Source of the DNA: a virus
IMG/VR virus record: IMGVR_UViG_3300042311_000577
Span: 1-64,000 of that record
Length of the DNA stretch: 64,000 nt
Strand: one strand, 5' to 3'
The number at the start of each line of letters is the position of its first letter. Position 1 is the stretch's first letter. Position numbers and translations under genes: made by a program. The notes below the pieces were generated by a model, which made no database searches, was not told the DNA's origin, and saw nothing but the letters and a program-made list of their open reading frames with translations. This document shows positions 3,936 through 46,000 of the stretch, piece by piece.

Positions 3936-4412
3936 ATGAACTCAAAAGTATTTGTATTAGCAGATGAAACAGGTGCAGTTATTAATGTTTCAGAAAACAA
4001 TCCTGAATTTGGATATGTACGTGTACAACAAACAAGAACTGTTGTAGATGACAATGGATTTGTTCGTAGAAAAGCTATCAGTGCATTAATGCCTGGTACA
4101 ATAGAAGATTTACAAGATATGAATCTTTATGGTGGTCAAGAAATTGACGGTAAAATTATAGTTGAAGAATCATTGAGTCCTTTTAACAAAAAGAGACCAG
4201 AGCGTGATTTGAAAATAGCTGGTGAAACAGGTATTGTTTGTAGATTAGGTGGTCTTCCAATTTATAGAAGAACTAAATTTACTTTTAATACATCATTAGC
4301 TGATTCTACAATTGAGCATGATAATGTTGCTGAATTAAAAGCAGCATATGCAGCTCAAGTTGCAAAAGAAGCTGTTTCTTCTACAGAGGAAGATTTCTCA
4401 ATAGAAGGATAG
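3936..4412 (+). CDS. hypothetical protein, possibly ssDNA-binding
   Basis: 158 aa, beta-rich, acidic tip EEDFSIEG; followed by its own terminator; SSB role is inference. Confidence 0.7.
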   Translation: MNSKVFVLADETGAVINVSENNPEFGYVRVQQTRTVVDDNGFVRRKAISALMPGTIEDLQDMNLYGGQEIDGKIIVEESLSPFNKKRPERDLKIAGETGIVCRLGGLPIYRRTKFTFNTSLADSTIEHDNVAELKAAYAAQVAKEAVSSTEEDFSIEG

Positions 4413-4429
4413 TATTTACTTAGTTAGAC

Positions 4430-4454
4430 AAGGGGGCAGAAATGTCCCCTTTTT
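4430..4454 (+). terminator. intrinsic terminator
   Basis: AAGGGGGCA-GAAA-TGTCCCCTT plus T-run. Confidence 0.75.
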
Positions 4455-4477
4455 ATTATTTATGAATGTAAAATTGT

Positions 4478-4966
4478 ATGATTAAAATGGAAAAGTTAAA
4501 ACAACAGATTAGAAATTATCAATTGCATGCAGGTAAAACTTATATGCAATATGAACAAGATAAGTATTCAACTTATCAAAACTATTTGTATAAGAGAGCA
4601 TTATATGGTCTAGATGCTCTTGAACAAAAAGAACTTGCTACTATGTGTAGTAAGAAAAAACAACGGATTATTAATGTTTATAATAGAGCTCAAAATGTAT
4701 TGAATCTATTTAAACAAAAGCTTACAATAGAGTATACTAATAAACTCTTTGAATCATTGTTTCCTAAAAGCAATCTTACAAAAGCTTTTTTAGAGTGTGA
4801 TGAAGTAGATGAAAAGTTTAAGAATACTTTAACTTTTAAAGATTTAAACATCACAAAAGATGATATTATTAGTATCTTTATGCTAGAAGGTATACTTCCT
4901 AAAAACTTTTTAAGTTTACAGGAAGCACCAGTAAATTTACCAATGTTAAAAAATCAAAGTGTATGA
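4478..4966 (+). CDS. hypothetical protein
   Basis: 162-aa ORF; start could be 4487. Confidence 0.75.
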   Translation: MIKMEKLKQQIRNYQLHAGKTYMQYEQDKYSTYQNYLYKRALYGLDALEQKELATMCSKKKQRIINVYNRAQNVLNLFKQKLTIEYTNKLFESLFPKSNLTKAFLECDEVDEKFKNTLTFKDLNITKDDIISIFMLEGILPKNFLSLQEAPVNLPMLKNQSV

Positions 4967-5244
4967 AAACATTTTATGACATTAGAGAGTTGTCTCCAGC
5001 TAGAGAAAGATGGAGACCACTTGAAGTGAAAGTTTTACTAAGTAGTAAAAAAAGATACTTAATCAAAGTTATTACAACAGACCATCCAAGATGTACTGAT
5101 CTGATAGATAAGTATATTGTTTGTCCAAAGGATAATTTTCTTGATAAAGATCTTCATATTACTGAAAGCTTTTGGAGTGCTCTAAAGAATTTTTTATTTA
5201 AGAAAGCAGCTAAGGTTGCTGAGTTTCCTGAAGAATTATTATAA
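4963..5244 (+). CDS. hypothetical protein
   Basis: 93-aa ORF with ATGA overlap. Confidence 0.7.
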   Translation: MKTFYDIRELSPARERWRPLEVKVLLSSKKRYLIKVITTDHPRCTDLIDKYIVCPKDNFLDKDLHITESFWSALKNFLFKKAAKVAEFPEELL

Positions 5245-5266
5245 ATAAAAATTAAAAACTAAAATT

Positions 5267-5473
5267 ATGACAAGAGAAGAATTTGAAAAAAAAGTGTATG
5301 ATTTAACTAATCAGTTAACAGAATTGGTAAAACAATTACCAGAAATTCCTGAACTAGATGATACTCTAGATCCACGTGACTATGATACAAGTAAAAGTTC
5401 ATTTGGACTTTCTATTATAGGCTTAGAACAAGATTTAGATCTTTTATCAGATACATATTTTGATGAAGCTTAA
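5267..5473 (+). CDS. hypothetical protein
   Basis: 68-aa acidic ORF. Confidence 0.65.
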   Translation: MTREEFEKKVYDLTNQLTELVKQLPEIPELDDTLDPRDYDTSKSSFGLSIIGLEQDLDLLSDTYFDEA

Positions 5474-5867
5474 AACTTGTGACGGTTGCCAAAAGGAAAC
5501 CGTGATATGGAAGAACCATGAGGGATTCAAATACTGTAAATATTGCTGGAGTTGCCAAAAAGCCATTAATAATGACAGTTCACAGAAACCAACTGATTAT
5601 AAAATCCCTCAGGTTTCTTCTAAAAGAAAGAAAAAAGATCAAGAGTATCTCAAACTAAGAGAAAAACATTTATTGGTGAACAACCTGTGTGAGGTAAAGG
5701 TGAATGGATGTGGTCACATGGCTACTGATATTCACCATACCTATGCAGGGGCTAACAGAGATGCTTTTTATCTAGTTCAGAGTACTTGGAAAGCAGTATG
5801 TAGGAATTGTCATGATTGGATTCATGCAAATCCAGCAGAGGCTAGAACCATGGGATGGTTAAAATAA
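5460..5867 (+). CDS. HNH-type (His-Me finger) endonuclease with N-terminal Zn finger
   Basis: N-terminal CDGC..CKYC; C-terminal CEV..C..ATDIHH...VCRNCHDWIH. Confidence 0.7.
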   Translation: MMKLKTCDGCQKETVIWKNHEGFKYCKYCWSCQKAINNDSSQKPTDYKIPQVSSKRKKKDQEYLKLREKHLLVNNLCEVKVNGCGHMATDIHHTYAGANRDAFYLVQSTWKAVCRNCHDWIHANPAEARTMGWLK

Positions 5868-5872
5868 AAGAT

Positions 5873-6778
5873 ATGACAGCAGAATTAAAAATATTACATG
5901 AAAAAATACCTGAGTCAGATCCTAGAACTTTAAAACAAATACTTACAAATAAGAAACTTTGTAAAGAAATACTCAAAAGAGATGTTATTTCTGAAAGACA
6001 ACTTATTACTGAGTATAATATTCCATTAGGTTATCTTAAAGGATTAAAGTCTAGAAAGGTTATCAGTTATTTTAGTACAAGAGGACAACTTAATGTTCCT
6101 AAAAAGGGATCTAAGTATTATTATTTCTTAGATGAGGTACAAAATTTAATGGGCTATAATATAAGATATAATTCAAGTTTTGTGTTCCGGTATAATTTAA
6201 TGAATAGAGTTTCTTTAGAGTTATCTAAAGAATTCAATCCTGAAAAACATACACTGATGCTTAAGATGTTTCTTAAGGATAATAAATCACTAGAAGAAAT
6301 TGCTGATGAATTTAATATTAGCCGTGCAAGGGTCACTGAGATATTAAATAAGAGTGCTAGTAGAGTTATTTATTTTACAAGAAAACTTTTTAAGGCACAT
6401 GGTATTGAAAGAGATACATTATCTCTTTTAACTGAGAATGAGTTACTAAAAAGTCATAATACACAGTTGTATAATAAATTTACAAGAGAAAAAGAAACTT
6501 TAGAATCAAAACAGTTCTTATCTAGTTCAGCTGCTAAACATTTTATAAGAAATAAGTTTGATGTTAGAGATCTTAAGAAGAATATAATTCATGAACTTGA
6601 TACAAATTTATCTGTAAGAGCATTGAATTGTCTTAAATTGGCTGACATAGAAACTCTTGAAGATTTATTATACTACAGAAAGTCTGACTTGATGAGATTT
6701 AGAAACTTTGGTAAGAAATCATTAGATGAATTATGTTATTGGTTAGAAGATAAATACAAGTGGGAATTAATCTATTAA
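5873..6778 (+). CDS. putative transcription regulator: N-terminal wHTH-like + sigma70 region-4-like HTH + RNA polymerase alpha-CTD
   Basis: KSLEEIADEFNISRARVTEILNK (sigma4-like HTH); LSVRALNCLK.ADIETLEDLL...DLMRFRNFGKKSLDEL (RpoA alpha-CTD signature). Confidence 0.8.
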   Translation: MTAELKILHEKIPESDPRTLKQILTNKKLCKEILKRDVISERQLITEYNIPLGYLKGLKSRKVISYFSTRGQLNVPKKGSKYYYFLDEVQNLMGYNIRYNSSFVFRYNLMNRVSLELSKEFNPEKHTLMLKMFLKDNKSLEEIADEFNISRARVTEILNKSASRVIYFTRKLFKAHGIERDTLSLLTENELLKSHNTQLYNKFTREKETLESKQFLSSSAAKHFIRNKFDVRDLKKNIIHELDTNLSVRALNCLKLADIETLEDLLYYRKSDLMRFRNFGKKSLDELCYWLEDKYKWELIY

Positions 6779-6782
6779 AGTT

Positions 6783-7877
6783 ATGACAAAAGATGAAGTT
6801 CAATTAGAAGCATTAAAAGCAACTGATGGTAAGCAGAAATGTAGTGTGGTTCTTGGTACAGGTGTTGGGAAAACCCTTGTTGGCCTTACACATATTGAGA
6901 AAAATACTACCTCTCTAATGAGATGTCTTATTGTTGCTCCAAAAAAGTCAATCTTCCAATCATGGAAAGATGATGCTGTTAAATTTGGAAAAGAAGATTT
7001 ATTAGGTAGAATGGTATTTACTACTTATTTAAGTTTGAATAAACATAACCCTAATGATTATGATGCAGTCTATTTGGATGAAGTTCATAGTTTATTAGAT
7101 AGTCACAGAGGATTTCTCCAACTATATAGAGGAAAGATTCTCGGATTGACAGGTACTCCACCAAAAAGGAGTTATTCAGAAAAAGGTAAGTTAGTACAAG
7201 AGTTCTGTCCCGTAGTATTTACATTCAAAGCAGATGATGCTGTAGAGAATGGAATACTAAATGATTACCAGATAGTAGTGCATCAGTTACATTTGACTAA
7301 TAACAAAGTATATCCTGTTAAAACTGGTAACAAACAGTATTTAGCATCTGAAGTAGATAACTATACTTATTGGTCAAGAAGACTAGATGTGGGTTCCGGA
7401 AATATGCATATACTTAGAGTCATGAGGATGAAGGCAATGATGGAGTATCCTACTAAAGAAAAGTATACTAAAATACTAATGAATAGTATACAAACTAAAT
7501 GTATTGTATTTGCTAATACTCAAGCTCAAGCAGATAGATTATGTAAACATAGCTATCATAGCAACAACAAGGAGTCAGAAGATAACTTACTCATGTTTAA
7601 GGAAGGAAAAATAAATAAACTTTCTACTGTACTGCAGTTGAATGAGGGTGTAAATATTCCTAATCTTAAGCAAGGTATTATTATGCATGCATATGGTAAT
7701 GAGAGAAAAGCAAGTCAAAGAATTGGAAGATTACTCCGGTTAAATCCAGATGATAAAGCTATTGTCCACATACTATGTTATATGGATACAATAGATGAAA
7801 AATGGGTTAAGGAAGCATTAGAAAATTTTGATCAGACTAAAGTAATTTGGAAAGATTTTGGGGTTAAATTAGATTAA
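6783..7877 (+). CDS. superfamily 2 (DExH) helicase
   Basis: Walker A GTGVGKT, DEVH, motif III TGT, motif V EGVNIP, motif VI QRIGRLLR. Confidence 0.9.
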   Translation: MTKDEVQLEALKATDGKQKCSVVLGTGVGKTLVGLTHIEKNTTSLMRCLIVAPKKSIFQSWKDDAVKFGKEDLLGRMVFTTYLSLNKHNPNDYDAVYLDEVHSLLDSHRGFLQLYRGKILGLTGTPPKRSYSEKGKLVQEFCPVVFTFKADDAVENGILNDYQIVVHQLHLTNNKVYPVKTGNKQYLASEVDNYTYWSRRLDVGSGNMHILRVMRMKAMMEYPTKEKYTKILMNSIQTKCIVFANTQAQADRLCKHSYHSNNKESEDNLLMFKEGKINKLSTVLQLNEGVNIPNLKQGIIMHAYGNERKASQRIGRLLRLNPDDKAIVHILCYMDTIDEKWVKEALENFDQTKVIWKDFGVKLD

Positions 7878-7890
7878 CCCCAATATTTTT
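7858..7890 (+). terminator. hairpin, possible terminator
   Basis: TTGGGGTTAA-ATTAGA-TTAACCCCAA then TATTTTT; overlaps the helicase stop. Confidence 0.5.
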
Positions 7891-7906
7891 ATTATATTAG
7901 AAGTAT

Positions 7907-8161
7907 ATGGAAGATGTAAAAACACATAAGTTAGTATTGCATAATGATGACCATCATGACTTTTTATATGTAATTGCATGTCTTATGCGTCATTGTAAAC
8001 ATGATGCTACACAAGCTGAACAATGTGCAATTACAGTTCATAATAGAGGTAAATGTTCTGTTAAATCCGGTGATTTTCTTGAAATGTTAGATTTAAAAAC
8101 TAACTTAGAAGATTTAGATTTAATAACAGAAATTGAAGCCTATGAAAGTCATTTGTATTGA
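7907..8161 (+). CDS. clpS: ClpS-like Clp protease adaptor
   Basis: LVLHNDDHHDFLYVIACL...QAEQCAITVHNRGKCSVKSG matches the ClpS pattern. Confidence 0.85.
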   Translation: MEDVKTHKLVLHNDDHHDFLYVIACLMRHCKHDATQAEQCAITVHNRGKCSVKSGDFLEMLDLKTNLEDLDLITEIEAYESHLY

Positions 8162-34020: not shown

Positions 34021-37000
34021 TTATTTGATTTTACCTGCATTTTCTAGACCTTCTATAGCTTTATCTACCTGACCACTAGACCCTGTAACACCAACTGTTT
34101 TAAGTAAATGTCCTATAACTTTTGGTCTACCTTTTTGCTCCCACCAGTACTCACCTTCTTTTCTACTATAGAATGCTTTTTCACTTCCTACAAGTAATCT
34201 ACCAAGATCTTGATAGATTTTTGCATATAGGCTTATTGTATTTCCAAATGCTGAAGTAGTTGTACTTGCCATTTTGATATAATCATCACCACCAAGATTT
34301 ACTCCAGCAAGTGACGGTAATGGTACAAATGCTGAGGTTTCCATTTGAGTACCCAAAAGTAAAAGTAGTGTATGATTTTGTATAAAACCAAAAGTTTTAA
34401 AGTCATCTGTACCTAAAGCTCCTGATCTCTCTCTCATTTTTTCAAACCTATCTTTATCATCAGGATCATAACCAAATACCATTGATGCTAACAAAGCAAA
34501 AGTTATAATTGCTAATGATTCACTTAATGCTCTTATCATATCAGCTTTTTGCTGCTCATCCATATAGGCCCAGTATTTACCTTTACTAGTAACTAATTCT
34601 TTCATGCCGAGATATGCATTAAGATAAAAACCTATAGTAGGTTTACCGGTCATCCAATCATATCTTTTTTGAAATTTAGGTTTCCAAAACTTACCATTTT
34701 CAATTTCAACTCTAGCTCCCCATCTGTTAGTAAGCATAGGAATAAACCATTTTCTCATGAAAGTAAACATTCTAAATGGTAGATATAAGTTACCTTCTGC
34801 TTGAGCAAAGTCATCATAAGCACCATATAATCTATGAGAGACACCTTGAAATTTATTTCTAAATTGTTTGAATTTTTCTGATTTAGCAATTATAATTTCT
34901 TGACCTGCTTCAAATTCTATAGCATTAACTACTTTATTTCTAGTTTTTAATTCTTCAACAGTGACACCATAAGTCTTTGCTATATCTTCTAAAGTTTCAC
35001 CTTGGATGTAGGTATGATAGATTGTTTTATTACTCCATGCCGGATCTACACCCGGTAATAACTCAGCTATTCCAGTATCCTTATTAAGTTGCCAAGCATC
35101 TTTATAATTAATTGTAATTGTTTTACCATTAGAAAGTTTTTGCTCTACTTTTTGACCATTAAGAAAGCCTCCGAAAAGTTGTAGTGTTGCCTCCATTTCT
35201 AAGTTCTTTCTAACACTCATCATCCACTCACCATTCATCATGTCTTTTACAAAGTTTCTAGAAACAGATCTACCAAAATCATCTTTGAATTTAAATGCTG
35301 AGTCAAACATTTCAATCAATTGTGATGATAATGCAGGAACACCTTTAGTGTAAATACTATTAGCAGACCATTCAAGCATACTTTGTGCAGCCCATATTCT
35401 AGCTTTAGCTAAATCTTTTACTGATACATTTTCTCCACCGGCAGCTTCAATCATGTTCTGTACTATCTGTCCATATCTGTTTTTTAAGTCAGAAGGAATA
35501 TTTATAGCAAGAGATGCTCTTGATGATATCTTTTGTATTAGACCAACAAATTTATCTAGATAGACAGAACTACCTTGACCACTATACTGTACACCATGAT
35601 ATTCTCTATCTATTAAAGATCTAATCTGACCAGCTCTATTATTAGCGGCTCCTTTTAATACACTTTGTACAAGCTTACCATTTATTTTCTTAATGTTCTT
35701 ACTATATGTATTAGGGTTCTTAGGTGCATTCTTAGGATCTTCCAATGTTTCTAGTATAGAGTTAACTAGAGGTAAAGATTGTAATAACTGACTTTGATTC
35801 TCTAATGAAAGCAAATACTTAAACATACCTCTAATAATATCAGGATCTGTATTATTAATTTCCATATTATAAGTACCAGTTACTGGGATATATGATATCT
35901 CCTCAGCATTTAAATCAGTATTTACTAATCTGTATTCTTCAAGATTATTATCTCTCTGATAGTTATGTTCATTTTCTACCTCATCTACAGATTCTGCAAA
36001 AGTATCTTTTAAATATTGAACAAATCCCGCTCCTATTTGAGATACTCTTTCTTTTGAATTACCACCTCTTATTCTTGATAAAGTGTCTCTGAGAACATAT
36101 CTAGGAACATCAAGATATAATTTAGAATTATTAGACTTATCTTCTTGAAATGATAAATGTGCTTCTTTAAGAAATTCTAATAATTTAAATCTAGGATCAT
36201 TAGGTTGATTCATTAATCTCAAGTAGTCTTGATTCATGAATTTACCACTTTTAGCAGAATTTTTTGTTCCCGGTTCATACATTCTTGGTAAAAACTGACC
36301 CTTATTATCAATATGAGTTCCTACTTCCAGTACTACTTCTTCTGTTGATGGATTATAACCAGTTCTATACTTATCTTTTATTCTATATATAGAATGCCTT
36401 GCATTAGGAACACCATTAAAAGTTTCTGTTTTACCAGTCATTTCATTATAGAGTTCTACTGTTTTGTAATACTCCGGATTTTTAGGAACAGAAATTGAAT
36501 TTACCATAGATCTTTCCCATTTGATTTCCATCTTACGGGTCTTTCTATTTTTTACCTTTCTATATACATGATTATTTTTAAACCATTCAGAAATTTTTGC
36601 ATCTTCAGCTAATAGGTTCTTCATTTCAGAACTATTAATAAAATCTGTAACAGTATCTGCTGTAACCGGTGCAACATCCAATCTTTGTAAATGCTCATTA
36701 AGAGAATCCACATAGTATTCAGTTGGTATCTTTTGTGTTAATGAAGATAACTCTGCGTATATAGCTTGAATACTACTTATTTCACCTATTGATAATCCTG
36801 ACTTGGCCTGTTTTTCTAGAAGATCTACATATCTTGATTTCTGATCTTTAGTTAATCTAGTTGGATCTTTTTTAATAGCGGCCATATAGATGTTTAACTC
36901 TTCAGTTTCCTCGGTAGAGAGGCCGGTTCTGGTATCAAATTTAGCTTTATAATCAATTATTTTTTGATTAAGCTCTTTGATTGTTTTTATTTTGTCTTCT

Positions 37001-40000
37001 CCTAAGTTTTCAGGAATAGGTTGACCTTGTTCATCTTTGTATGCATACATTAAATTAAATATATCATTATATGCATTAGCCATATCAAACTCTTCACCAA
37101 TTACATTAGTTATTTTTCCTTGTAACTCTTTTAGCTGTTTAATAAGATTTGTTCTGGATTCATAAAACTTCTCATCATAAGCTGTTTTAATATTTTGTTT
37201 AACCCAATCTTTTTTAGCCTGTTCTAATTCATCTCCAGTAACATTATTAGCATCTTGTAAAGATAGAAACTCATTAAATGATGTTTGTAGGGACCCTGTT
37301 CTTGGTAAAAATTCATAGAAATCTTTAGTAGAATCTCTATATTCTAGTAAAATATTGGTAATGCTAAGATCATAGATACCATTTTCTGGATCATCAACTT
37401 TTGAAGAACCATCTGCATATTTTAATGAGTATAGATTTTTATAATCTTCCCACAAAGCTTGAAGAGTTGAGTATTTCTGATATCTTTCTAACTCATCTGT
37501 AAGTTCATTTACTTCATTATTATAAGCATCAAGAGCCATTTTTCTAGCAAGCCAAGCCATTTTACCTACCTCACCGTATTTATCAAAAACATTATCCTTT
37601 TCATATACCTCAGGTACATAATCATTATGCATGTAATCTTTTTGAAACTGTCTATACTCATCAACTGCTTTCCGTATATCATCTTTATTTTCAGAAGACC
37701 ATGCTTTCTCCAGATTATATTCTAATAAAGATTGCTCATATCTCCAACCATTACCAAATTTATCTAAGAAAGAATTCACTTTTCTTTCTTTAGCTTCTTT
37801 TGTTTTAGGATCTATATATAATACACTATCTTCAAAAGTCATCATTTTTAATAACTTTCTAGGATCTAGAGTACTATAACCTACACTTTCTAATAAAGGA
37901 ACAAGCTTCCTTCTGAACATGTATGATTTTTCTAGGGCCCTGTTATTAGCTTCTGTTCTTTGGTTATTAATGAATATAGCTAATCCACCTACTATAGGAT
38001 CATTACTAGAAGTATATGACTCAAAGAATCTATTAAACCAACTAACATCTTTTAGTTTTCCAGAAAGACCATCCGTAATCACATCTTGATTAAGTAGAAA
38101 GTTATTATACTCATCAATAAATTTCTTAACATATTTTGCTTCAATCCCCTTTTTTTGAAGATTGTTATATACTTCATTAGCTACTTTAGGATCTAGCATT
38201 TTTTGAGAAATTGCCTTATCATATAAGTCTTTAACTTCAGTATCTGAAAGTTTATTAGTTAAAGCATTTTTAAGATTTTTACCCAGTTCTTCAGCTAAGA
38301 AATCATTCATATAACCAGTTACCTCTACATAGAAATTAACTGCATTTTCTTTATATATATCTCGTATTTTTTTATCAGCTCTTAATAAATTATTTTTTAC
38401 ATCATTAACAAAAGTTACTAGATCATTTTCTTTATCTATATCAAAGTCTTCTTCACTTCGGAGTAGTTCATCAAAGGATTCAAAGGTATCATTCCATGAC
38501 CGGATGCTATTTCTATATAGAAATAAAAGTGCTATTGCATCTCTAGAGTCATAACTATTTGTCTTTTGCAAAGTATCTAAATCCTTATACATGTTTTTAG
38601 ATATGTTATTAATAACAGATAAAGTATTAATAAAACTTCTAGACTTATTAGTTAAGTCAGTAATTCTTCTTTCCTCAGCATCAATAACATTATCCAATAC
38701 CTCATCAACAGACATGTTTTTAGTATTGGTTACTGTTTGATAATCACTTAAGCTTCTTAAAACTCTTGGTAATAATTCATTAGACCCTTTTTGAAATAAT
38801 GCTTCTTTAAGCATTTTTTGATACATTGGTGATCTTGTTCTAAAGTTTCTAGCTTTTTCATTTATTAATCTACTTGCAGCAAAAACATTATTTAAAGATT
38901 CCTGTATTTTATCTCCTTGTACATCTTTAGTAAGTTGAACAGCCATTTGTTTATAGTCCCTGAGAAAACCTAGTAAGTCATCATTGGTTATTTTCCCATT
39001 TTCAAACTCAAAAGTTTCATCCAAAAACATATCAGCCAATTCATCAATAGTAGTATCTACATCTAGTTTGCTTAGTTTTTTTCCGCCAAATATTTTTTTA
39101 AGTATATCCTTTAAAGCCAATAATAATTTATTCATAAATGATTTAAAATCACTTGTTTCAAAATCATCAGTGACTTTAGTTACTGCTTTTGCTTGTAATG
39201 CATAAACAAGAGCTTCCTCTTTAAATAAATAATCACCTTCTGACAACTCAGGATATTCATTTATCAAATGATTTTTTATTATTTTCCCTTCTTCAGTAGT
39301 CATTAATAATGAATAAAGATTTTCAAATAAGTCTTTATTTTCATTATAAAGTGCTCTCAAAAATGGATGAGCAAACTCATGGAGTACAGTATCAAAATTG
39401 ACATTATCTCCAACAACATAAACAGTTTTTCCAAAATAAAACGCAGGTTCACCTCTATATTGTTTTTTTCTTATACTTAGTATTTTTGTAGCTTCATCAG
39501 CTGTAATATTTATAAAACCTACATTTAATTTTTCTGACATTTTTTTAGCAAGACCTATAGCAGCTTCTTTTGCTCTTGCATTTCTTATAGTAGCTTCATC
39601 AATATTTTTTTCTATTCTGCTACTATAATCCATCATTGGCTTTGTTGCACTATCTTGATTGATTGGTGATACATATCCAGATTGTCTCATAAACATAGGA
39701 TCCAAACTTTCATCTTCAGGAAATACTGAATCAGGTTCATTTAGAATATCATAGTCTTGTAATTCCTCCTTTATATCAGCCCGCATTCTTTCATCATCCA
39801 GTACTTCAAATAAAGCATCATTAGGTTGTATATATAATTTTGAAGCTACATCATCTCTCCAATATCTAGAAGAATAAGGATATGAAGTTTCAATTTCATA
39901 TGGTGTATCAAAAAAATAATCACCGGCTCCAAGTTTAATATTTGGATATGTCAATTCTATAAATCTTGTAAATTCTTTATTGAATTTATCAAACTCAGCT

Positions 40001-40083
40001 TTATCTAAGATCTCATTATATTGACCAATTATACCTTTTTTTCTTAAGTCTTCTAGTACAGTGGATTTAGATTCACAAAACAT
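34021..40083 (-). CDS. giant virion/ejection protein with zincin-like motif and LysM domain
   Basis: HEFAH with downstream EE; LysM YIQGETLEDIAKTYGVTVEELKTRN; hydrophobic segments near the C-terminus; adjacent to the RNAP gene. Confidence 0.8.
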   Translation of the reverse strand: MFCESKSTVLEDLRKKGIIGQYNEILDKAEFDKFNKEFTRFIELTYPNIKLGAGDYFFDTPYEIETSYPYSSRYWRDDVASKLYIQPNDALFEVLDDERMRADIKEELQDYDILNEPDSVFPEDESLDPMFMRQSGYVSPINQDSATKPMMDYSSRIEKNIDEATIRNARAKEAAIGLAKKMSEKLNVGFINITADEATKILSIRKKQYRGEPAFYFGKTVYVVGDNVNFDTVLHEFAHPFLRALYNENKDLFENLYSLLMTTEEGKIIKNHLINEYPELSEGDYLFKEEALVYALQAKAVTKVTDDFETSDFKSFMNKLLLALKDILKKIFGGKKLSKLDVDTTIDELADMFLDETFEFENGKITNDDLLGFLRDYKQMAVQLTKDVQGDKIQESLNNVFAASRLINEKARNFRTRSPMYQKMLKEALFQKGSNELLPRVLRSLSDYQTVTNTKNMSVDEVLDNVIDAEERRITDLTNKSRSFINTLSVINNISKNMYKDLDTLQKTNSYDSRDAIALLFLYRNSIRSWNDTFESFDELLRSEEDFDIDKENDLVTFVNDVKNNLLRADKKIRDIYKENAVNFYVEVTGYMNDFLAEELGKNLKNALTNKLSDTEVKDLYDKAISQKMLDPKVANEVYNNLQKKGIEAKYVKKFIDEYNNFLLNQDVITDGLSGKLKDVSWFNRFFESYTSSNDPIVGGLAIFINNQRTEANNRALEKSYMFRRKLVPLLESVGYSTLDPRKLLKMMTFEDSVLYIDPKTKEAKERKVNSFLDKFGNGWRYEQSLLEYNLEKAWSSENKDDIRKAVDEYRQFQKDYMHNDYVPEVYEKDNVFDKYGEVGKMAWLARKMALDAYNNEVNELTDELERYQKYSTLQALWEDYKNLYSLKYADGSSKVDDPENGIYDLSITNILLEYRDSTKDFYEFLPRTGSLQTSFNEFLSLQDANNVTGDELEQAKKDWVKQNIKTAYDEKFYESRTNLIKQLKELQGKITNVIGEEFDMANAYNDIFNLMYAYKDEQGQPIPENLGEDKIKTIKELNQKIIDYKAKFDTRTGLSTEETEELNIYMAAIKKDPTRLTKDQKSRYVDLLEKQAKSGLSIGEISSIQAIYAELSSLTQKIPTEYYVDSLNEHLQRLDVAPVTADTVTDFINSSEMKNLLAEDAKISEWFKNNHVYRKVKNRKTRKMEIKWERSMVNSISVPKNPEYYKTVELYNEMTGKTETFNGVPNARHSIYRIKDKYRTGYNPSTEEVVLEVGTHIDNKGQFLPRMYEPGTKNSAKSGKFMNQDYLRLMNQPNDPRFKLLEFLKEAHLSFQEDKSNNSKLYLDVPRYVLRDTLSRIRGGNSKERVSQIGAGFVQYLKDTFAESVDEVENEHNYQRDNNLEEYRLVNTDLNAEEISYIPVTGTYNMEINNTDPDIIRGMFKYLLSLENQSQLLQSLPLVNSILETLEDPKNAPKNPNTYSKNIKKINGKLVQSVLKGAANNRAGQIRSLIDREYHGVQYSGQGSSVYLDKFVGLIQKISSRASLAINIPSDLKNRYGQIVQNMIEAAGGENVSVKDLAKARIWAAQSMLEWSANSIYTKGVPALSSQLIEMFDSAFKFKDDFGRSVSRNFVKDMMNGEWMMSVRKNLEMEATLQLFGGFLNGQKVEQKLSNGKTITINYKDAWQLNKDTGIAELLPGVDPAWSNKTIYHTYIQGETLEDIAKTYGVTVEELKTRNKVVNAIEFEAGQEIIIAKSEKFKQFRNKFQGVSHRLYGAYDDFAQAEGNLYLPFRMFTFMRKWFIPMLTNRWGARVEIENGKFWKPKFQKRYDWMTGKPTIGFYLNAYLGMKELVTSKGKYWAYMDEQQKADMIRALSESLAIITFALLASMVFGYDPDDKDRFEKMRERSGALGTDDFKTFGFIQNHTLLLLLGTQMETSAFVPLPSLAGVNLGGDDYIKMASTTTSAFGNTISLYAKIYQDLGRLLVGSEKAFYSRKEGEYWWEQKGRPKVIGHLLKTVGVTGSSGQVDKAIEGLENAGKIK

Positions 40084-43000
40084 TATATACAGTTTAATGG
40101 GTTATTTTCTCCTTCAAATTTAGCTAAAATTTCCGCATCTGTAATTGGTTGATATTTAGCAACTTGAGAACTAACTTCTTTACTAAACTCTGAACCAGGA
40201 TTCAGATACTGAAATTCTTCAAATAATCTCTTACTTAAATATACAAATAATTCTTGAGGCATCAAAGAAGGATCACCATAACCATTAATAGAAAATGCAA
40301 CATTACCACCATCTTGAATAACTTGATTGATTTCAGCAATAGCTTTTTCAATCTCATTTTGTAGAGCTTTGTAGTATTTAGGATCTGTTTTACTAAAAGC
40401 ATCATCAATATTATTTTGACCAGTTATTATACCTATAGAAGCACTATTAGCAAGTTTTTTCAATTGTACTTGTCCAGTTAGTTTTTTAGAATTAAATTCT
40501 TTCTCTGTAAGTTTTTCAAAATTTTGTCTTTGCCCAAGACTAAATTGATATACAAAAGTTACATCCGGATTATTATCTACAATATACTTATATGCTTTTT
40601 CAGTTCCTGAAAGATCATTATAAACAAATACCTTTGGATTGATAGTAGAGATAAGATTTTTCCTTTCTACCAAGTTTTCTGAAGCTGGTTTAGAAAGTTC
40701 ATTTTGTTCTTCTGCTAATTGATAATAAATAAATGCCGGATCAGATTTAATACTACGGTTAATAGGATTTAGATTTATATAATCTTTTTGATCTTTTTCT
40801 CTTCGGAACCATCTTTCTTTATCATCTAAAGGTGATAAAGTAGATTTACCTCTGTAAATATCATTCCAAGAACTGAATATATTTATTATATTTTCATTTG
40901 GTTTTGAATTTTCATATGTGAAAAAGTCAACTGGTATTACAGTATCTGCTGTAATATCAACTTTATTTCCTTTTGAATCTTTTACTATAACAGCTCCTTT
41001 CAAAGCCCATCCTTGTTTATTTCTAGCAGTTACTTCTACAGTATATCCAGGTTTAGGTATATAATAAGCATAAGTTGTGTATGCAGTCTTTGACCAACCA
41101 AAATGTACTGGTACGGCATTTAATAAATTAAGAGCTTCTTCTAAATTTTCTAAATTTTGCTGATTTGTACCATCAACAATAAAATCAAGATCATGAATAG
41201 GCTCCTCGCTTGGTCTATATATAACTTCACCTTGACCTGCTATTGCTAATGAACCTACAAGAGGAAACTTAAGATCTTTAGCAAAAGTATCAATAATCTT
41301 TTTAGCTAGAGGGTTATTTTTAATAGCCTCGTCATAGTTTAATTTTGGTCTTTTTTCAGTTATATCTGCTATGTATTCTGTATTACCAGCAAGTACATTC
41401 AGTGCAATATGGTCTGCAATTCTTGCATTATAATTCATAGTTTGAAATAATGCAAAGTTTTTAAACATCTTAAGTATTAAATCTTCAATAGCTTTTATTA
41501 AAGTTTTAATAAGTGATTTGTCTAATCCAGCAGCTTCATAGTTTGATACAAGAGATTTGGATATTAATTTACCCATTGCTTCAATCTTAACTTGCTCTTC
41601 ATTTTTATATAAAGGCATATATTCTGCATATACAGAATCATACTCATCCCAAGTTGTAATATTTCTTGATAATTGTTTAATTGCCTTATGATTAGGGCCC
41701 ATTAACATCACAAGCATATGACCTACTTCTTCAGGTATAGTCTCTGCATTTCTATCTTTTGTATACCAGATAAGTTTATTAAGCACATCAGTTGCACCTA
41801 AAGCATCAACTCCTAATTTATCTTTTAGTGTTTCAAACTCTTTGCTTTGTACACCAAATTGTTTTACAAACTTCAATAAGTAATCATCTAATTCCTTAAT
41901 AGCTTTACTAGCATTTCTAGCATCTTTTAATTGGAACATTGGTTCTTCTAATTGATCACCTGTTTCATCAGATTCTGTTGGAGGTAATGGTAAAACTTCA
42001 TTTGAATTAAGACTCTTATCTACATTTAATCCAGTAAGATAATTTTTAAATCTGTATCTGTCTCTGTTTGCTTGACTATTAGTTTTTTCAAACTTATTTT
42101 TAAAATCAACTAGCAATTGAATCTTGTTAGGTGAAGTTAAAAACTTAGCAGTTTCCTGATTCATAATTTCTAAGAACTTATCAAAATCAGTTATGTTTAT
42201 CATGTTATACTTACTCTTATTTGTACCAGATTGCATCATTGCAACATAAGTAATATTAGAGAAGAAATCACTGATTCTATCATTCTCAGTTTTGTCTTTT
42301 ACTTTAATAACATTTCTATCTCCTAGATCCTTTAAGTTCTGTGTATAAGTGTTAGACTTAAAGGAGTTCATATCTTTGTCATCTAGGTAGAAATTAAACA
42401 TTGTTTTGTTGTTATTGATATCCGGGATCATTCTAGATAGTACAGGATAGTCACCTACAAAATCATTTTTATACATAGTTTTTATTCTATCAAGTCTTAT
42501 AGAATAAGCTTGATCATTATCATAGAATAAGTGATATGGATTTAATGTATTATCTAGGGCTCTTGAAGTTAAGATTTTCTCATAAGTATATCTTCTGTTT
42601 TTTGATTCATCTGATATAACACTAGTCTTTTTAGTATTTATAAGTTCTTTTTTGAATTCTTGACTTTTAACTATCTCAGCCATTGGCATAACATGTCTAA
42701 GATATTCTCTCTCAATTACAAACCGTAGATACTCTTCTTTATTTGATGGAGTATTTTTACCAAAATGTCCTGGTTTAAGTGGGAATAAACCACGAGACTC
42801 ATAGCTGTTTTGAGCTTCTGATCCTTCCAAGTAAGCTTTATCAAAGAATTCTTTTTCAATTTGTACTTTATCTACTACTACTGTAGGTACACCTTTTTCT
42901 TCAGTAACAAATGCACCAAACTTAAGACCTGCAGCAGGAGTTACTGAAATAGAATCTTTTAAATTATATGAACTATATTCTTTATCAAGACTATACTTTC

Positions 43001-46000
43001 TTACAGCATTTTGAAATAAATAACTTAAAATATCATTTCTAAATACTATAGGAAACTTTTCTCTATACATTTTACCAAATACAGTTTTTAAAGCTGCCGT
43101 ATTAGTAAAATCAGATAAATAATTTTGTATATAATCTTGTATGTCTTCATCATATCTAAACTTAAACAATGGTTTAGCTAAGCCTTTTACCATTTTTGTA
43201 TTAAAGAATGAACTAATGATAGAGTCATATAGCATTCCGGTTCTTAAATCCGGATCTATTTTTGTTTCTGCTGCTAATTCATCTATGTCAGATTCAGCTT
43301 GAATTACTTGACCTATATCAGTATCAAGAGCTGTATCTGGATTAGCTGCCATCTTAAGTCTGGTAATACCTTCAATTTGTTTTTCAATAGTAAGATAATG
43401 TAAGAACATTGTTCTAGATAGAGAGCTCATTGCTTTTTCAGGATTATCTTTACTATCCTTGATTAAGTTAAGCATTTCTTCTTCTGTAAAATGTCTATCA
43501 CCCCCTTCTCTCTCATTAGCATCAAAATAAATATTAAGCATTTTTTCACCAGCCGTATATCTAGATAAATCATCCGGAAGCATTTTATCAAAGTTTCTAG
43601 CTATAACATTTGTTGCTGCTTTGAAAGCTACACCAATGTCTTTTGCAGATTTTCTTAAAGGTTCAGCAAAAGTACTATTAATCAATCTTCTTTCTTTAAC
43701 ATACTGTCTTACAAGTGGTTGAGATACAAAATATATTGCTTCTTTTACAGGAACACCAGTCTTAAGTAAGTAAAGAAGTATAGGTGCAACTTCATAGTTA
43801 CCTTGAACAAAGAATACCCAAGCATCTTTTTCAACATCTACCCATCCATTCATTAATTGAGATATAATATCAGCTACTTTATTATTACCATCTACATCAT
43901 AAATGTTAGAAATAGATATAACATCTTCACCATTTTTAGTAGTTTTATGATGTCTTAATCCTAAGAATGATTTTCTAAATTCTTTTTCATTTGAATGCAT
44001 ATACACCGCTGGCATAACAGCACCCAATGAGTTAAAGATAACATTGAATGTATTTTCAATAGCTCCAAGTCCTAATGTTCTCTTACCAACTACATTTGAC
44101 TCATGTTTGTATAAGTTGTAGCCAGCCTCAAATATTCTTGTAGGACTAATAACTTCTTTTTGTTTACCATTTTTATCTGGAGCACTTAAATTTGGAGTAT
44201 CAGACATTATATTTTGTAAAGGATTATAATCCATTACATATTCAGCTAATTTATCTGCTATAGGTTTAACCAAGTAAGTACCATTAGGAGTAATAAGTGA
44301 AACAAAATTCTGTGGTAATTCAAGAATACTTCTAATATCATTAATAAGTTCATTCTCAAGACCTGCTTTTTGTGCAGCATATATCTCTTCTTTAGTCATA
44401 TCATACTTAGAAGGATCCTTTAATGCTTCATAAAAATCTTCAGATTTTTCAAACATTGATTTTTTGATATTACCCTCAGGATCAATACTTGTCATAAAGA
44501 TTGATAACTTATCAATATCAAAGTCAGCTCCGGACTTAGCAACAATTTCTGGTGGAGGAATAATAATATTACCAGCTTGTGGTGGAAGGAAGTGGTATAC
44601 TTCCATGAACTCCATAGAGTTAAGACCTTGTACTGGAATCCTAACACCGACCATTGTTATTGCCTTTCTATTACTAGCATCATTATCATTTAACCATTCA
44701 TCATCTTTTATAGCTTCATTTAGTCTATCCAAAGTAGAGATAGGTTCACCTTTATATTCTAGATTAAGCAAATTCTCATAATCTCCCTGAAGTGAAATAG
44801 CAACTTTCATTGCTGTTGTTTTACCATCAGCTCCTTTATGATATGTAGGTAAGAAGTTTGAACCCATGTACTTCTTGACAGCAGCATCTCTTGCTGCAGG
44901 ATTCATTTTATCAAGATCTAATTCTAAATTAATTAATCCATCATAGAATCCTGAAGACTTTTGCACTAAAGGTTCTCCTTTTACTTTTTGTTTAATGATT
45001 CTTTTATTAATAACTGATAATAAAAGTTTTTCAATTTTAGCAGCTTCAGGATGTAAAGACAAATCAAATCTTAATTCACCTTCTTCAGTTACATCAATAA
45101 TATCAATTAACTTATCACTATAAACATCATCTCTAGTGAGAGTGTCTCTGATCATTTTAGCTAATTTGGCAATACTATCTTTATCAACCGGAATGTATTC
45201 ACCAGCTTCATTAACTTTAAAACCAAGTTCATCCGTAAGTTCATTTTTAAGTAACTCAGTATATGCACTTACTCTATCTACATAATTATTAACAAGTGCT
45301 ATAACTTTAGGATCCTTAGATGTAATCTCACCATTTTCATATAACCCTTCTAAAATCATCTTTCTCATCTGAGTAGAGAATATTGATTTTTCTTTGTATT
45401 TTGAATTTACTTCAGTTTGGTTCTTTAAAAATTCCGCAAAGACTACATTCTTAGTAAATTCAACTGAAGTATCTATATTACCATTTTTATCAATAATCTC
45501 ATCACCGTTACCTATGTGTCCAACTTTTTCACCAGTTTCCATTAAAACATAATGTACATTTTGCTTAAGCATCATGTCATGTATCTGACCTAATTTAGTA
45601 TCAGCAGTATGTACTGTTGGGATTATTGGAGCTAATGAAAATTTATGAAAAGATACAACAGGAAGACCTTCTGTTTTTATATTACCATAGTACTGTAATT
45701 TATATGGTGGAAAGAATTGTTGAATATCTGATCCACTAATAATATCACCCTTTACAATTTTTCTATATAGATCTTCTTGTTGAGCTGACCAATTACCTTC
45801 TAAATTTTTAAGCATTCTATATGCTTCAAAGTTAATCCATCCTTGACCATCAGCAATTTTCATATTACTATAGTCTTTTAATACAGTTTCTGAAAGTTCT
45901 TTTGCTAATCTTGTAGCTTCTTTTTTAGATTTACCCGCTGCAATATATCTTTTTGTATAATCTTCAATTAAAGCTTCAGAATATTCCGGTTTATATTTTG

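What the first reader, a model, noticed from the sequence alone, without database searches (positions are those of the whole stretch)
5873..6778. Phage protein fusing a sigma region-4-like HTH to an RNA polymerase alpha-CTD
Seen: the C-terminal ~60 aa (about 6580-6770) carry a clear RpoA alpha-CTD signature (LSVRALNCLK, RNFGKKSL.EL). A central HTH resembles sigma70 region 4.2, and the N-terminus may be a MerR/Xis-like winged helix. Established: alpha-CTD binds UP elements and activators, while sigma4 binds -35 DNA and the beta flap. Inference: the protein joins two upstream promoter-recognition modules of host RNAP. It could redirect host RNAP to phage promoters, titrate host activators, or supply promoter recognition to the phage RNAP.
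Basis: partly seen in the sequence, partly recalled or inferred. Interest (0 to 1): 0.7.

Follow-up and report, generated by a model that had tools for sequence, protein, structure and literature searches.

The report
Phage DNA-binding protein carrying RNA-polymerase alpha-CTD
A crAss-like phage from lake water encodes an early-module protein that joins two DNA-binding helix-turn-helix domains to a true copy of the C-terminal domain of the bacterial RNA polymerase alpha subunit, probably to steer host transcription onto phage promoters; its relatives are common in uncultured phages and no study of them was found.

Summary
ORF 5873-6778 (+, 301 aa) ends in a true RpoA alpha-CTD: Pfam PF03118 scores 61.8 bits against a cut-off of 23.8 (E 4.9e-17), and the model overlays solved alpha-CTDs at 1.1-1.5 A. 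The central HTH is sigma-70 region-4-like. It is just under threshold here (21.3 vs 24.1 bits) but matches in 27 of 32 relatives. The N-terminal domain looks like an excisionase/MerR-type winged helix, on sub-threshold evidence only.

This is not a one-off fusion. The same architecture recurs in relatives only 23-30% identical over the whole protein. A motif-limited IMG/VR scan gave 51 alpha-CTD loci, with the domain standing alone or fused to sigma-4, HTH_17, Cro/C1, MerR and other DNA-binding domains. No cultured phage record holds a full-length member. Eight literature searches found no description.

The genome (122.8 kb) is crAss-like and has no sigma region 2. The gene lies in the rightward replication module, co-transcribed with a helicase.

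Best reading (0.5): an early-made, site-specific transcription factor whose effector is a borrowed alpha-CTD, acting on host RNAP at phage middle/late promoters. Function is inferred, not shown.

Rivals are an alpha-CTD decoy, a replication or architectural DNA binder, and a specificity factor for the phage RNAP.

The parts
5873..6778 (+). Whole CDS (301 aa plus stop) of the HTH-HTH-alpha-CTD protein P0001. An alternative ATG lies at 5855.
   Evidence: Twenty of the 22 aligned family members start at the Met equivalent to 5873.
5873..6148 (+). N-terminal domain, residues 1-92: three helices followed by a strand-helix-helix-wing unit (residues 37-88, nt 5981-6136). Candidate excisionase/MerR-type winged helix.
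   Evidence: Secondary structure from the AF2 models. Relatives show sub-threshold HTH_17 matches at the equivalent residues (37-83 and 46-81). Atlas clusters carry HTH_17 in 61-100% of members. The fold search was inconclusive.
6152..6190 (+). Low-confidence linker, residues 94-106.
   Evidence: pLDDT is below 50 for residues 94-106.
6197..6397 (+). Sigma-70 region-4-like / YlxM-like helix-turn-helix, residues 109-175.
   Evidence: Pfam: Sigma70_r4 21.3 bits and UPF0122 25.8 bits at residues 124-177. Genome search: 23.1 bits at 6239-6355. PDB profile hits: UPF0122 1s7o/1xsv E 3e-4 and FliA region 4 E 8e-4. Sigma70_r4 matches 27 of 32 relatives.
6404..6523 (+). Long helix, residues 178-217, with invariant L192, N196, L199, K202 and F203. 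Possibly a leucine-zipper-like dimerisation element (inference).
   Evidence: Helix in the AF2 model. Invariant columns in the family alignment. No dimer evidence was obtained.
6587..6745 (+). RNA polymerase alpha-subunit C-terminal domain (alpha-CTD), residues 239-291.
   Evidence: PF03118 E 4.9e-17 and 61.8 bits. 65.7 bits in the genome search. RpoA chains top the PDB profile search. rmsd 1.1-1.5 A to solved alpha-CTDs.
4478..7877 (+). Probable transcription unit of six tightly packed or overlapping ORFs: 4478-4966, 4963-5244, 5267-5473, 5460-5867 (Zn-finger/HNH-like), 5873-6778 (this gene) and 6783-7877 (SF2 helicase).
   Evidence: ORF spacing. Terminator-like hairpins at 4430-4451 and 7858-7883 on the + strand. 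PHROG hits for the HNH-like ORF and the helicase.

Best explanation
P0001 is a modular, site-specific DNA-binding transcription factor of a crAss-like phage. Its effector module is an alpha-CTD captured from a Bacteroidota-type RpoA.

Shown:
- The protein is a string of independent domains: an N-terminal winged-helix-like domain, a sigma region-4-type HTH, a long helix and an alpha-CTD.
- The alpha-CTD keeps the residues that in RpoA contact the DNA minor groove.
- The gene lies in the rightward replication module, in one apparent operon with a helicase.
- The genome encodes no sigma region 2.

Inferred:
- The protein is made early, by analogy with phi14:2, where the rightward replicative module is transcribed by the injected virion RNAP.
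- It binds specific sites on phage DNA through its HTH domains, possibly as a dimer.
- It places its own alpha-CTD on adjacent A/T-rich DNA next to host RNAP holoenzyme. There the domain makes the contacts a genuine alpha-CTD makes (to DNA, and to sigma region 4 or alpha-CTD-binding partners). This would recruit or stabilise host RNAP at the phage middle/late promoters of the leftward structural module.
- Candidate targets are six TTTWGTATATTA sites that lack a -35 element and lie just upstream of leftward genes.
For: Architecture. The full-length model has pTM 0.32 with confident individual domains, that is, beads on a string.

Alpha-CTD DNA-contact equivalents. E. coli numbering is recalled; the mapping uses the motif alignment to RpoA. 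In the 48 of 60 family proteins in which both motifs were found: R265-equivalent 48/48, G296-equivalent 48/48, N294-equivalent 45/48, N268-equivalent 38/48, C269-equivalent 37/48, K298-equivalent 38/48 and S299-equivalent (S or T) 45/48. P0001 itself has R249, N252, C253, N278, G280, K282 and S283.

Selective constraint. The 54-aa alpha-CTD core of P0001 is 65% identical to its best Bacteroidota RpoA. Distant family members that share only 23-30% identity with P0001 over the whole protein still keep alpha-CTDs 50-81% identical to RpoA.

Generic effector behaviour. All 41 viral alpha-CTD proteins scanned match PF03118. Of these, 15 also carry Sigma70_r4, 8 HTH_17, 5 Sigma70_r4_2, 4 HTH_3 and 2 MerR, and single proteins carry Mor or FitA-RHH. 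This is the pattern expected of an activation or recruitment module attached to interchangeable DNA-binding domains.

Genome logic. The genome is crAss-like (portal, TerL and MCP PHROGs; portal tblastn). It has a + strand replication block at 1-33.9 kb and a - strand structural block. In phi14:2 the rightward replicative module is early and rifampicin-resistant, while the middle and late leftward genes need host RNAP (passages). There is no Sigma70_r2 in the genome. This gene is the only notable sigma-4-like match; the other is a weak 15.9-bit match in a giant ORF.

Candidate targets. TTTWGTATATTA occurs in six intergenic sites. All are on the - strand, 4-33 nt before an ATG, and several lie directly after a terminator hairpin. 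The same 12-mer occurs 5, 3 and 2 times in three relatives that encode the protein. Every one of these is on the strand opposite to the gene, and the reversed-pattern control found none.
Against: - No experiment or computation here shows DNA binding, RNAP binding or any effect on transcription.
- The link between the protein and the TTTWGTATATTA sites is circumstantial. The motif is absent from two phages that lack the gene, but those phages are also far more distant, so phylogeny confounds the comparison. One of the ten relatives' sites (L082) looks intragenic.
- P0001 has Asn, not an acidic residue, at the position equivalent to E. coli E261, the residue recalled to contact sigma region 4. 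Only 30 of 48 family proteins have D or E there.
- The gene sits in a replication module next to a helicase, which fits a replication role equally well.
- The four named crAss-like or related phages tested do without any alpha-CTD protein, so the factor is not a general requirement of the crAss transcription programme.
- Early timing is inferred from another phage, not measured.
Confidence: 0.5

Rival explanations
1. Decoy or competitor. The phage alpha-CTD mimics the host domain to occupy UP-element-like A/T DNA or to soak up host factors that normally dock on RNAP alpha-CTD. This would shut down or re-programme host transcription rather than activate phage promoters.
For: Similarity to Bacteroidota RpoA alpha-CTD is high (65% over 54 aa for P0001 and up to 81% for relatives). 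Other viral contigs carry short stand-alone alpha-CTD ORFs of 79-160 aa with no other Pfam domain, which would suit a decoy.
Against: A decoy does not need two further DNA-binding domains. These are nonetheless conserved across the family down to 23-30% whole-protein identity to P0001. The best-conserved alpha-CTD positions are the DNA-contact equivalents, not an obvious protein-docking surface.
Confidence: 0.15
2. Replication or recombination DNA-binding protein. The three modules, with the alpha-CTD acting as a generic double helix-hairpin-helix DNA binder, serve as an origin-binding, helicase-loading or architectural/excisionase-like factor with no role in transcription.
For: The gene lies in the replication module, directly upstream of and apparently co-transcribed with an SF2 helicase. 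This adjacency (0-2 ORFs between) holds in 8 of the 17 loci compared. The N-terminal domain resembles excisionase-type HTH_17 in relatives.
Against: In 7 of 17 loci the gene has moved about 5 kb away from the helicase, so the linkage is not obligatory. The domain is specifically alpha-CTD: PF03118 matches all 41 viral proteins scanned, whereas the generic HHH_5 model matches only 5 of the 41. It also stays close to RpoA in sequence, which a generic HhH role would not require. The middle domain is sigma-4-like, a transcription-specific HTH class.
Confidence: 0.15
3. Specificity factor for the phage's own giant RNAP. The sigma-4-like HTH and the alpha-CTD give promoter recognition to the virion two-barrel RNAP, which has no known specificity subunit.
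For: The genome encodes giant ORFs with a DFDID motif (2020 aa and 4028 aa). In phi14:2 no common motif was found upstream of transcripts made by the virion RNAP, so its promoter recognition is unexplained.
Against: PF03118 is absent from phi14:2, phi17:2, Lbo-JY46 and csAssE-Sib (4 of the 5 records searched), all of which share the crAss-type portal with this phage. HTH-alpha-CTD proteins occur in viral contigs sharing no other gene with this phage. The gene is in the early module, not the virion module, so the product would be absent when the injected RNAP starts work.
Confidence: 0.1

Closest known systems
C-terminal domain of bacterial RNA polymerase alpha subunit (RpoA alpha-CTD, PF03118), Bacteroidota type
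   Same: Same domain by sequence (61.8 bits) and fold (rmsd 1.1-1.5 A), with the same DNA-contact residues. The closest cellular sequences are 330-aa Bacteroidota RpoA proteins.
   Different: It is not attached to an alpha N-terminal domain. No PF01000 or PF01193 was found, and the upstream part has no RpoA similarity (best E 0.43). It therefore cannot assemble into RNAP core as an alpha subunit. In P0001's clade the last helix has diverged to a conserved W-rich tail.
Sigma-70 family region 4 (PF04545), and the YlxM/UPF0122 proteins that share that fold
   Same: The HTH at residues 109-175 matches both models. Relatives reach 44 bits for Sigma70_r4.
   Different: There is no sigma region 2 or 3 in the protein or anywhere in the genome, so it is not a sigma factor. 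It is much longer than the YlxM proteins of about 110 aa.
Phage activators that work through host alpha-CTD and sigma region 4 (Mu Mor/C, lambda CII, phi29 p4; recalled, except Mor/C, for which the abstract was seen)
   Same: Small phage HTH proteins that bind just upstream of a weak promoter and use alpha-CTD and sigma-4 contacts to recruit host RNAP. One relative gives a weak Mor match.
   Different: Those proteins recruit the host's alpha-CTD. This one carries an alpha-CTD of its own. No member of this family has been characterised.
Engineered DNA-binding-domain / RNAP-subunit fusions used to show activation by recruitment and in bacterial two-hybrid systems (recalled)
   Same: The concept is the same: an RNAP module covalently tethered to a site-specific DNA binder.
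   Different: This is a natural, conserved viral protein. The tethered part is the alpha-CTD on a DNA binder, not a protein fused to the alpha N-terminal domain.

Membership tests
RNA_pol_A_CTD domain (PF03118) | Profile score above the curated gathering threshold | tested here: met
   61.8 bits against a cut-off of 23.8, E 4.9e-17. 65.7 bits in the six-frame genome search.
RNA_pol_A_CTD domain (PF03118) | Compact helical fold with two helix-hairpin-helix motifs that superposes on solved alpha-CTDs | tested here: met
   rmsd 1.1-1.5 A over 61-68 columns and target-normalised TM 0.71-0.89 to 1z3e_B, 3gfk_B, 9zum, 3n4m_C and 1lb2_E. Foldseek E-values were only 2e-3 to 4e-2 for the full-length query.
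RNA_pol_A_CTD domain (PF03118) | DNA-contact residues (E. coli R265, N268, C269, G296, K298, S299; numbering recalled) | tested here: met
   P0001 has R249, N252, C253, G280, K282 and S283.
RpoA (RNA polymerase alpha subunit) | N-terminal dimerisation/assembly domain (PF01000, PF01193) preceding the CTD | tested here: not met
   No such Pfam match in P0001. The N-terminal parts of 47 family proteins have no similarity to 80 RpoA sequences (best E 0.43), apart from the extra alpha-CTD of P0026.
Sigma-70 family sigma factor | Region 2 (PF04542), which binds core RNAP and the -10 element | tested here: not met
   Absent from P0001 and from the whole genome at E <= 0.1, while the control genomes scored.
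Sigma-70 family sigma factor | Region 4 HTH (PF04545) | tested here: inconclusive
   P0001 scores 21.3 bits and 23.1 bits, both below the 24.1 cut-off. Relatives match in 27 of 32 at E <= 0.01, and 6 of 10 are above the cut-off.
UPF0122 / YlxM | Profile score above threshold, and a stand-alone protein of about 110 aa | tested here: inconclusive
   The score of 25.8 bits is above the 22.7 cut-off. PDB hits 1s7o/1xsv have E 3e-4. The match covers only residues 124-177 of a 301-aa three-domain protein, and only 5 of 32 relatives match.
HTH_17 / excisionase-MerR-type winged helix (PF12728) | Profile score above threshold in the N-terminal domain | tested here: not met
   P0001 has no hit. Relatives reach at best 24.6 bits against a 27 cut-off. 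Six of 32 match at E <= 0.01. Atlas clusters list HTH_17 for 61-100% of members. The fold search was inconclusive.
Mor/C phage activators (PF08765) | Profile match | tested here: not met
   P0001 has no match. One of the 32 A2 members (P0123) matches at E 0.003.

The most novel reading that the evidence does not exclude
Many uncultured phages carry a portable alpha-CTD as a general effector domain. When tethered to a site-specific DNA-binding domain, it acts in trans as an extra, promoter-anchored RNAP alpha-CTD (or, in stand-alone forms, as a mimic of it). This would be a previously undescribed class of viral transcription factors built from a piece of the host polymerase. In this crAss-like lineage it would provide the missing switch from virion-RNAP early transcription to host-RNAP late transcription at -35-less TTTWGTATATTA promoters.
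Probability: 0.35. Interest if true: 0.8.

Novelty: new variant of a known kind. Interest (0 to 1): 0.62.

Why it matters
Phages are known to hijack host RNAP through proteins that touch or modify the alpha-CTD. A phage family that instead encodes its own alpha-CTD, fused to sequence-specific DNA binders, would be a different solution. It would be a natural counterpart of the artificial recruitment fusions used to establish how bacterial activators work.

The family is large. Atlas clusters of 50-573 members share the HTH_17 / sigma-4 / alpha-CTD architecture. A motif-limited IMG/VR scan gave 51 loci. Members are absent from cultured phage records and from PHROGs, which may explain why no description was found.

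For crAss-like phages it offers a testable candidate for the unexplained early-to-late transcription switch. For transcription research it gives a set of natural alpha-CTD variants whose conserved and diverged surfaces can be read against function.

Tried and rejected
1. Homodimer test. Two copies of residues 105-235 (with alignment A1) were folded. The verdict was 'no answer' (score 0.14, mark 0.42). It is no evidence either way.

2. Capture of part of the alpha N-terminal domain or linker. Long gapped tblastn and blastp alignments to RpoA seemed to extend upstream of the alpha-CTD. With the alpha-CTD cut off, nothing was better than E 0.43. The idea is rejected.

3. Alpha-CTD tree (82 rows, 62 columns). 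Only 2 of 79 inner branches were starred. Bacteroidota RpoA rows sit among the family rows, and 25 of the 32 other viral alpha-CTDs group apart (SH-aLRT 89, not starred). No RpoA from other phyla was in the tree, so neither origin nor number of captures can be claimed. Each family alpha-CTD tends to be closer to RpoA than to other family members. This is most simply a star pattern around a slowly evolving RpoA, not evidence of repeated capture.

4. Generic promoter scans. The sigma-70-type scan (57 found, 64.6 expected) and the Bacteroidetes-type TANNTTTG pattern (114 found, 104 expected) are at chance level.

5. N-terminal domain fold search. No match at E <= 0.001. The best hit was 8za5_A at E 0.045, and the weak list is mostly winged-helix regulators.

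6. RNA evidence. Two metatranscriptome runs, held as contigs, were laid on 4400-8000. Short pieces 85-99% alike cover the upstream Zn-finger ORF and the helicase. Inside this gene only 36-40 nt of the alpha-CTD region matched, from contigs that run on unlike the phage and may be bacterial rpoA. Contigs in an RNA library do not show transcription, so nothing is concluded.

7. Literature searches. Searches returned no papers. One search returned one unrelated paper. In some searches no listing (titles and abstract starts) describes a phage-encoded alpha-CTD. One search was used for crAss transcription. In PMC7824862 the passages mentioning the alpha subunit concern host alpha modification and Pol III alpha.

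Drobysheva et al.'s promoter list and gene tables could bear on whether phi14:2-type middle promoters resemble the motif found here.

9. The PHROGs scan found no family covering the protein.
Full report
**What is there.** The window is the first 64 kb of a 122,794-bp viral record with direct terminal repeats (a 127-bp exact repeat). GC content is about 30%. ORF 5873..6778 (+) encodes a 301-aa protein, P0001.

The Pfam scan gave three relevant matches:
- PF03118 RNA_pol_A_CTD at residues 239-291: E 4.9e-17, 61.8 bits, cut-off 23.8.
- UPF0122/YlxM at residues 124-177: 25.8 bits, cut-off 22.7.
- Sigma70_r4 at residues 124-160: 21.3 bits, just under the 24.1 cut-off.

This is the only PF03118 match in the genome. 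An AF2 model built on 22 family sequences (mean pLDDT 78.1, pTM 0.32) shows separate confident domains:
- residues 1-92: helices plus a short three-stranded wing;
- residues 94-106: a disordered stretch;
- residues 109-175: an HTH;
- residues 178-217: a 40-residue helix;
- residues 240-295: a helical C-terminal domain.

The C-terminal domain overlays solved alpha-CTDs at 1.1-1.5 A over 61-68 columns, although Foldseek E-values for the full-length query were only 2e-3 or weaker. A profile of the family searched against PDB sequences puts RpoA first (E 1.8e-17 and 9.2e-16, two 330-aa chains). UPF0122 proteins (E 3e-4) and sigma region-4 fragments follow for the middle domain: FliA 8e-4, SigF 3.7e-3, sigma-A 0.012.

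**The family.** A word-indexed search of 5.8 billion proteins returned 24 full-length or nearly full-length relatives (P0002-P0025, 39-95% identical). After them came only RpoA proteins matching the alpha-CTD at about 50% identity. The RpoA proteins that carry names are from Prevotella, Hoylesella, Bacteroidales and Bacteroidota.

I searched with residues 1-232 alone, that is, without the alpha-CTD, against 1.84 billion cluster representatives. This found 34 proteins at E <= 1e-3. I aligned 29 of them with P0001, P0026 and P0027. Almost all end in an alpha-CTD as well, even though they are only 23-30% identical to P0001 over the whole protein. Pfam finds PF03118 in 27 of the 32 and Sigma70_r4 in 27 of the 32. 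Of 10 scanned individually, 6 exceed the Sigma70_r4 cut-off, with a top score of 44.1 bits. HTH_17, the excisionase/MerR-type HTH, appears sub-threshold in 6 of the 32, at residues equivalent to 37-88 of P0001.

The ESM Atlas lists several clusters of 50-573 members with the architecture HTH_17 + Sigma70_r4 + RNA_pol_A_CTD. They are mostly labelled Viruses/Uroviricota, with some Bacteroidota. These are leads rather than alignments.

The three-domain architecture is therefore old and conserved, not a recent accident. P0026 even carries two alpha-CTDs in tandem.

**Wider distribution.** A motif-limited scan of IMG/VR found 16 loci of the close family. Using two alpha-CTD peptide patterns, it found 51 loci in all, on contigs of up to 413 kb. 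I scanned 41 of the encoded proteins (P0001, 39 of the 51 loci after removing repeats, and one GenBank contig). All 41 match PF03118. Alongside it:
- 15 have Sigma70_r4 (best E 6e-21);
- 8 have HTH_17;
- 5 have Sigma70_r4_2;
- 4 have HTH_3;
- 2 have MerR;
- single proteins have Mor, FitA-RHH or GerE;
- several ORFs of 79-160 aa are alpha-CTD only.

Apart from the close clade and one distant crAss-like contig (L035), these loci share no other gene with this phage.

No PHROG family covers the protein. No record among 50,697 GenBank phage records holds a full-length member: 0 of 15 matching records and 0 of 21 cover 80% or more of the query. Several of the alpha-CTD-only matches there are annotated bacterial rpoA. 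PF03118 is absent from phi14:2, phi17:2, Leptolyngbya phage Lbo-JY46 and csAssE-Sib, and present in one unverified faecal contig (1 of 5 records).

**Relation to RpoA.** The 80 best matches in one-genome-per-species contigs are all Bacteroidota, and 75 of the 80 ORFs are 329-332 aa, that is, rpoA. The peptide pattern used for that scan contains the RNFG motif, so the taxonomic result is partly built in. Searches point the same way independently.

Similarity to RpoA is confined to the alpha-CTD. With that domain removed, 47 family proteins give nothing better than E 0.43 against the RpoA set, apart from P0026's first alpha-CTD. Over a 54-aa core, P0001 is 65% identical to its best RpoA, and relatives range from 35% to 81%.

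The positions equivalent to the DNA-contact residues of E. coli alpha-CTD (numbering recalled) are the best conserved. In 48 family proteins, R is 48/48, G 48/48, N294-equivalent 45/48, N268-equivalent 38/48, C 37/48, K298-equivalent 38/48 and S/T 45/48. The E261-equivalent is acidic in 30 of 48, and is Asn in P0001. A tree of the domain is unresolved, with 2 of 79 branches supported.

**Genomic setting.** The phage is crAss-like. PHROG matches identify portal, large terminase and major head proteins. The portal's best tblastn hits are Lbo-JY46 (33%), csAssE-Sib (28%), Cellulophaga phi17:2 and phi4:1 (26%) and many uncultured crAss phages (about 23%). A + strand block (1-33.9 kb) holds a helicase, a family-A DNA polymerase and other replication genes. 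A - strand block (34-116.6 kb) holds giant ORFs, two of which carry a DFDID motif, together with the structural genes.

The gene is fifth of six tightly packed ORFs between terminator-like hairpins at 4430-4451 and 7858-7883. It follows a Zn-finger/HNH-like ORF and precedes an SF2 helicase.

I compared 17 loci (the window plus 16 relatives):
- In 8, the gene lies 0-2 ORFs upstream of the helicase.
- In 7, it lies about 5 kb further downstream.
- In 2, the arrangement is intermediate or the locus is truncated.

The genome has no sigma region 2. Its only notable sigma-4-like match is this gene.

**How it most likely works.** The established facts come from passages of the bioRxiv version of Drobysheva et al. 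and a Crassvirales review. In the crAss-like phage phi14:2 the rightward replicative module is early and is transcribed by the injected, rifampicin-resistant virion RNAP. The leftward middle and late genes need host RNAP and have sigma-70-like promoters with an extra conserved block.

By analogy, P0001 would be made early and be available when host RNAP takes over. Its anatomy is that of a site-specific DNA binder: two HTH domains and a possible zipper with an invariant L-N-L-F heptad pattern. This binder carries, on a flexible tether, the RNAP module that normally binds A/T-rich DNA upstream of promoters and touches sigma region 4 and activators.

The most economical mechanism is recruitment. 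The HTH domains anchor the protein at phage promoters. The tethered alpha-CTD supplies alpha-CTD-type contacts in trans.

Looking for targets, I found a 12-mer, TTTWGTATATTA, at six intergenic sites. All are on the - strand, 4-33 nt before start codons. They are often immediately after a terminator hairpin, are preceded by A/T-rich sequence, and have no conserved -35-like block. The 12-mer recurs 5, 3 and 2 times in three relatives that encode the protein. Every one of these is on the strand opposite to the gene, and the reversed-pattern control found none. It is absent from two distant phages that lack the gene, but that contrast is confounded by phylogenetic distance.

These are plausible middle/late promoters. 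That P0001 acts on them is inference only.

**Rivals.**
- An alpha-CTD decoy fits the stand-alone forms elsewhere but not the conserved HTH domains.
- A replication or architectural role fits the neighbourhood. It does not fit the sigma-4-like HTH or the specific retention of RpoA-like sequence.
- A specificity factor for the phage RNAP is disfavoured by the domain's absence from other crAss-like phages and its presence in unrelated ones.

**Comparison and novelty.** The protein contains a true alpha-CTD but is not an RpoA, because it has no N-terminal assembly domain. It contains a sigma-4-type HTH but is not a sigma factor, because it has no region 2. It works most like phage activators that exploit alpha-CTD and sigma-4 contacts (Mu Mor/C; abstract seen). 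The difference is that it carries the alpha-CTD itself.

Automated annotation already labels relatives as 'YlxM', 'sigma factor', 'excisionase family' or 'putative RNA polymerase subunit alpha'. I found no paper describing such proteins in eight full-text searches. Subscription journals and supplements were not searchable.

I rate it a new variant of a known kind, namely phage factors that redirect host RNAP. It is of real interest to transcription and phage specialists, but its function is wholly untested.

Noticed in passing
G000:C1 68912, 82897, 98386, 108671, 113121, 116846 (all - strand; outside the window, in L002-L004): A conserved 12-mer, TTTWGTATATTA, lies 4-33 nt upstream of start codons of leftward genes. 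It often follows a terminator hairpin directly, and there is no conserved -35-like block. It also occurs in three related phage contigs (5, 3 and 2 sites). These are candidate middle/late promoters.
   Followed up: partly
window 3480 (+); G000:C1 98439 (-), 118504 (-), 121955 (+); also coding at window 37983 (-): The near-palindromic motif TTAGCTATAT(AGTGC) occurs 5 times in the genome, 4 of them intergenic. One copy is conserved at the equivalent place in a relative (L084). It is a possible operator for a dimeric HTH protein.
   Followed up: partly
window 34021-40083 (-) and 40083-52169 (-): Two giant ORFs (2020 aa and 4028 aa) each carry a DFDID motif of the kind that marks crAss virion RNA polymerases. 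Neither matched any PHROG at E <= 1e-5 when scanned (the 4028-aa ORF was not scanned). The 2020-aa ORF also has a weak sigma-4-like match (15.9 bits, 34939-35022).
   Followed up: partly
window 7907-8161 (+): An 84-aa ORF just after the helicase matches phrog_27368 ('ATP-dependent protease', E 9e-5). It may be a ClpS-like protease adaptor.
   Followed up: no
protein P0026 (411 aa, metagenomic relative): This family member has two alpha-CTDs in tandem (PF03118 128.8 bits, two stretches).
   Followed up: partly
window 4400-8000: Twenty-two runs marked 'DNA?', labelled lake water or freshwater metagenome (one labelled only 'metagenome'), hold this stretch. The phage appears to be a freshwater one, so its host is probably a freshwater member of the Bacteroidota.
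   Followed up: partly
phage collection records H54-H58: Several records in the phage collection that match the alpha-CTD are annotated bacterial rpoA (Salmonella and Acinetobacter contigs). They are bacterial sequence filed among phages, not phage alpha-CTD genes.
   Followed up: no
window 5460-5867 (+): The upstream neighbour is a Cys-rich ORF of 135 aa with HNH-endonuclease PHROG matches (E 3e-8). It is conserved next to the gene in most close relatives (cluster 6).
   Followed up: no
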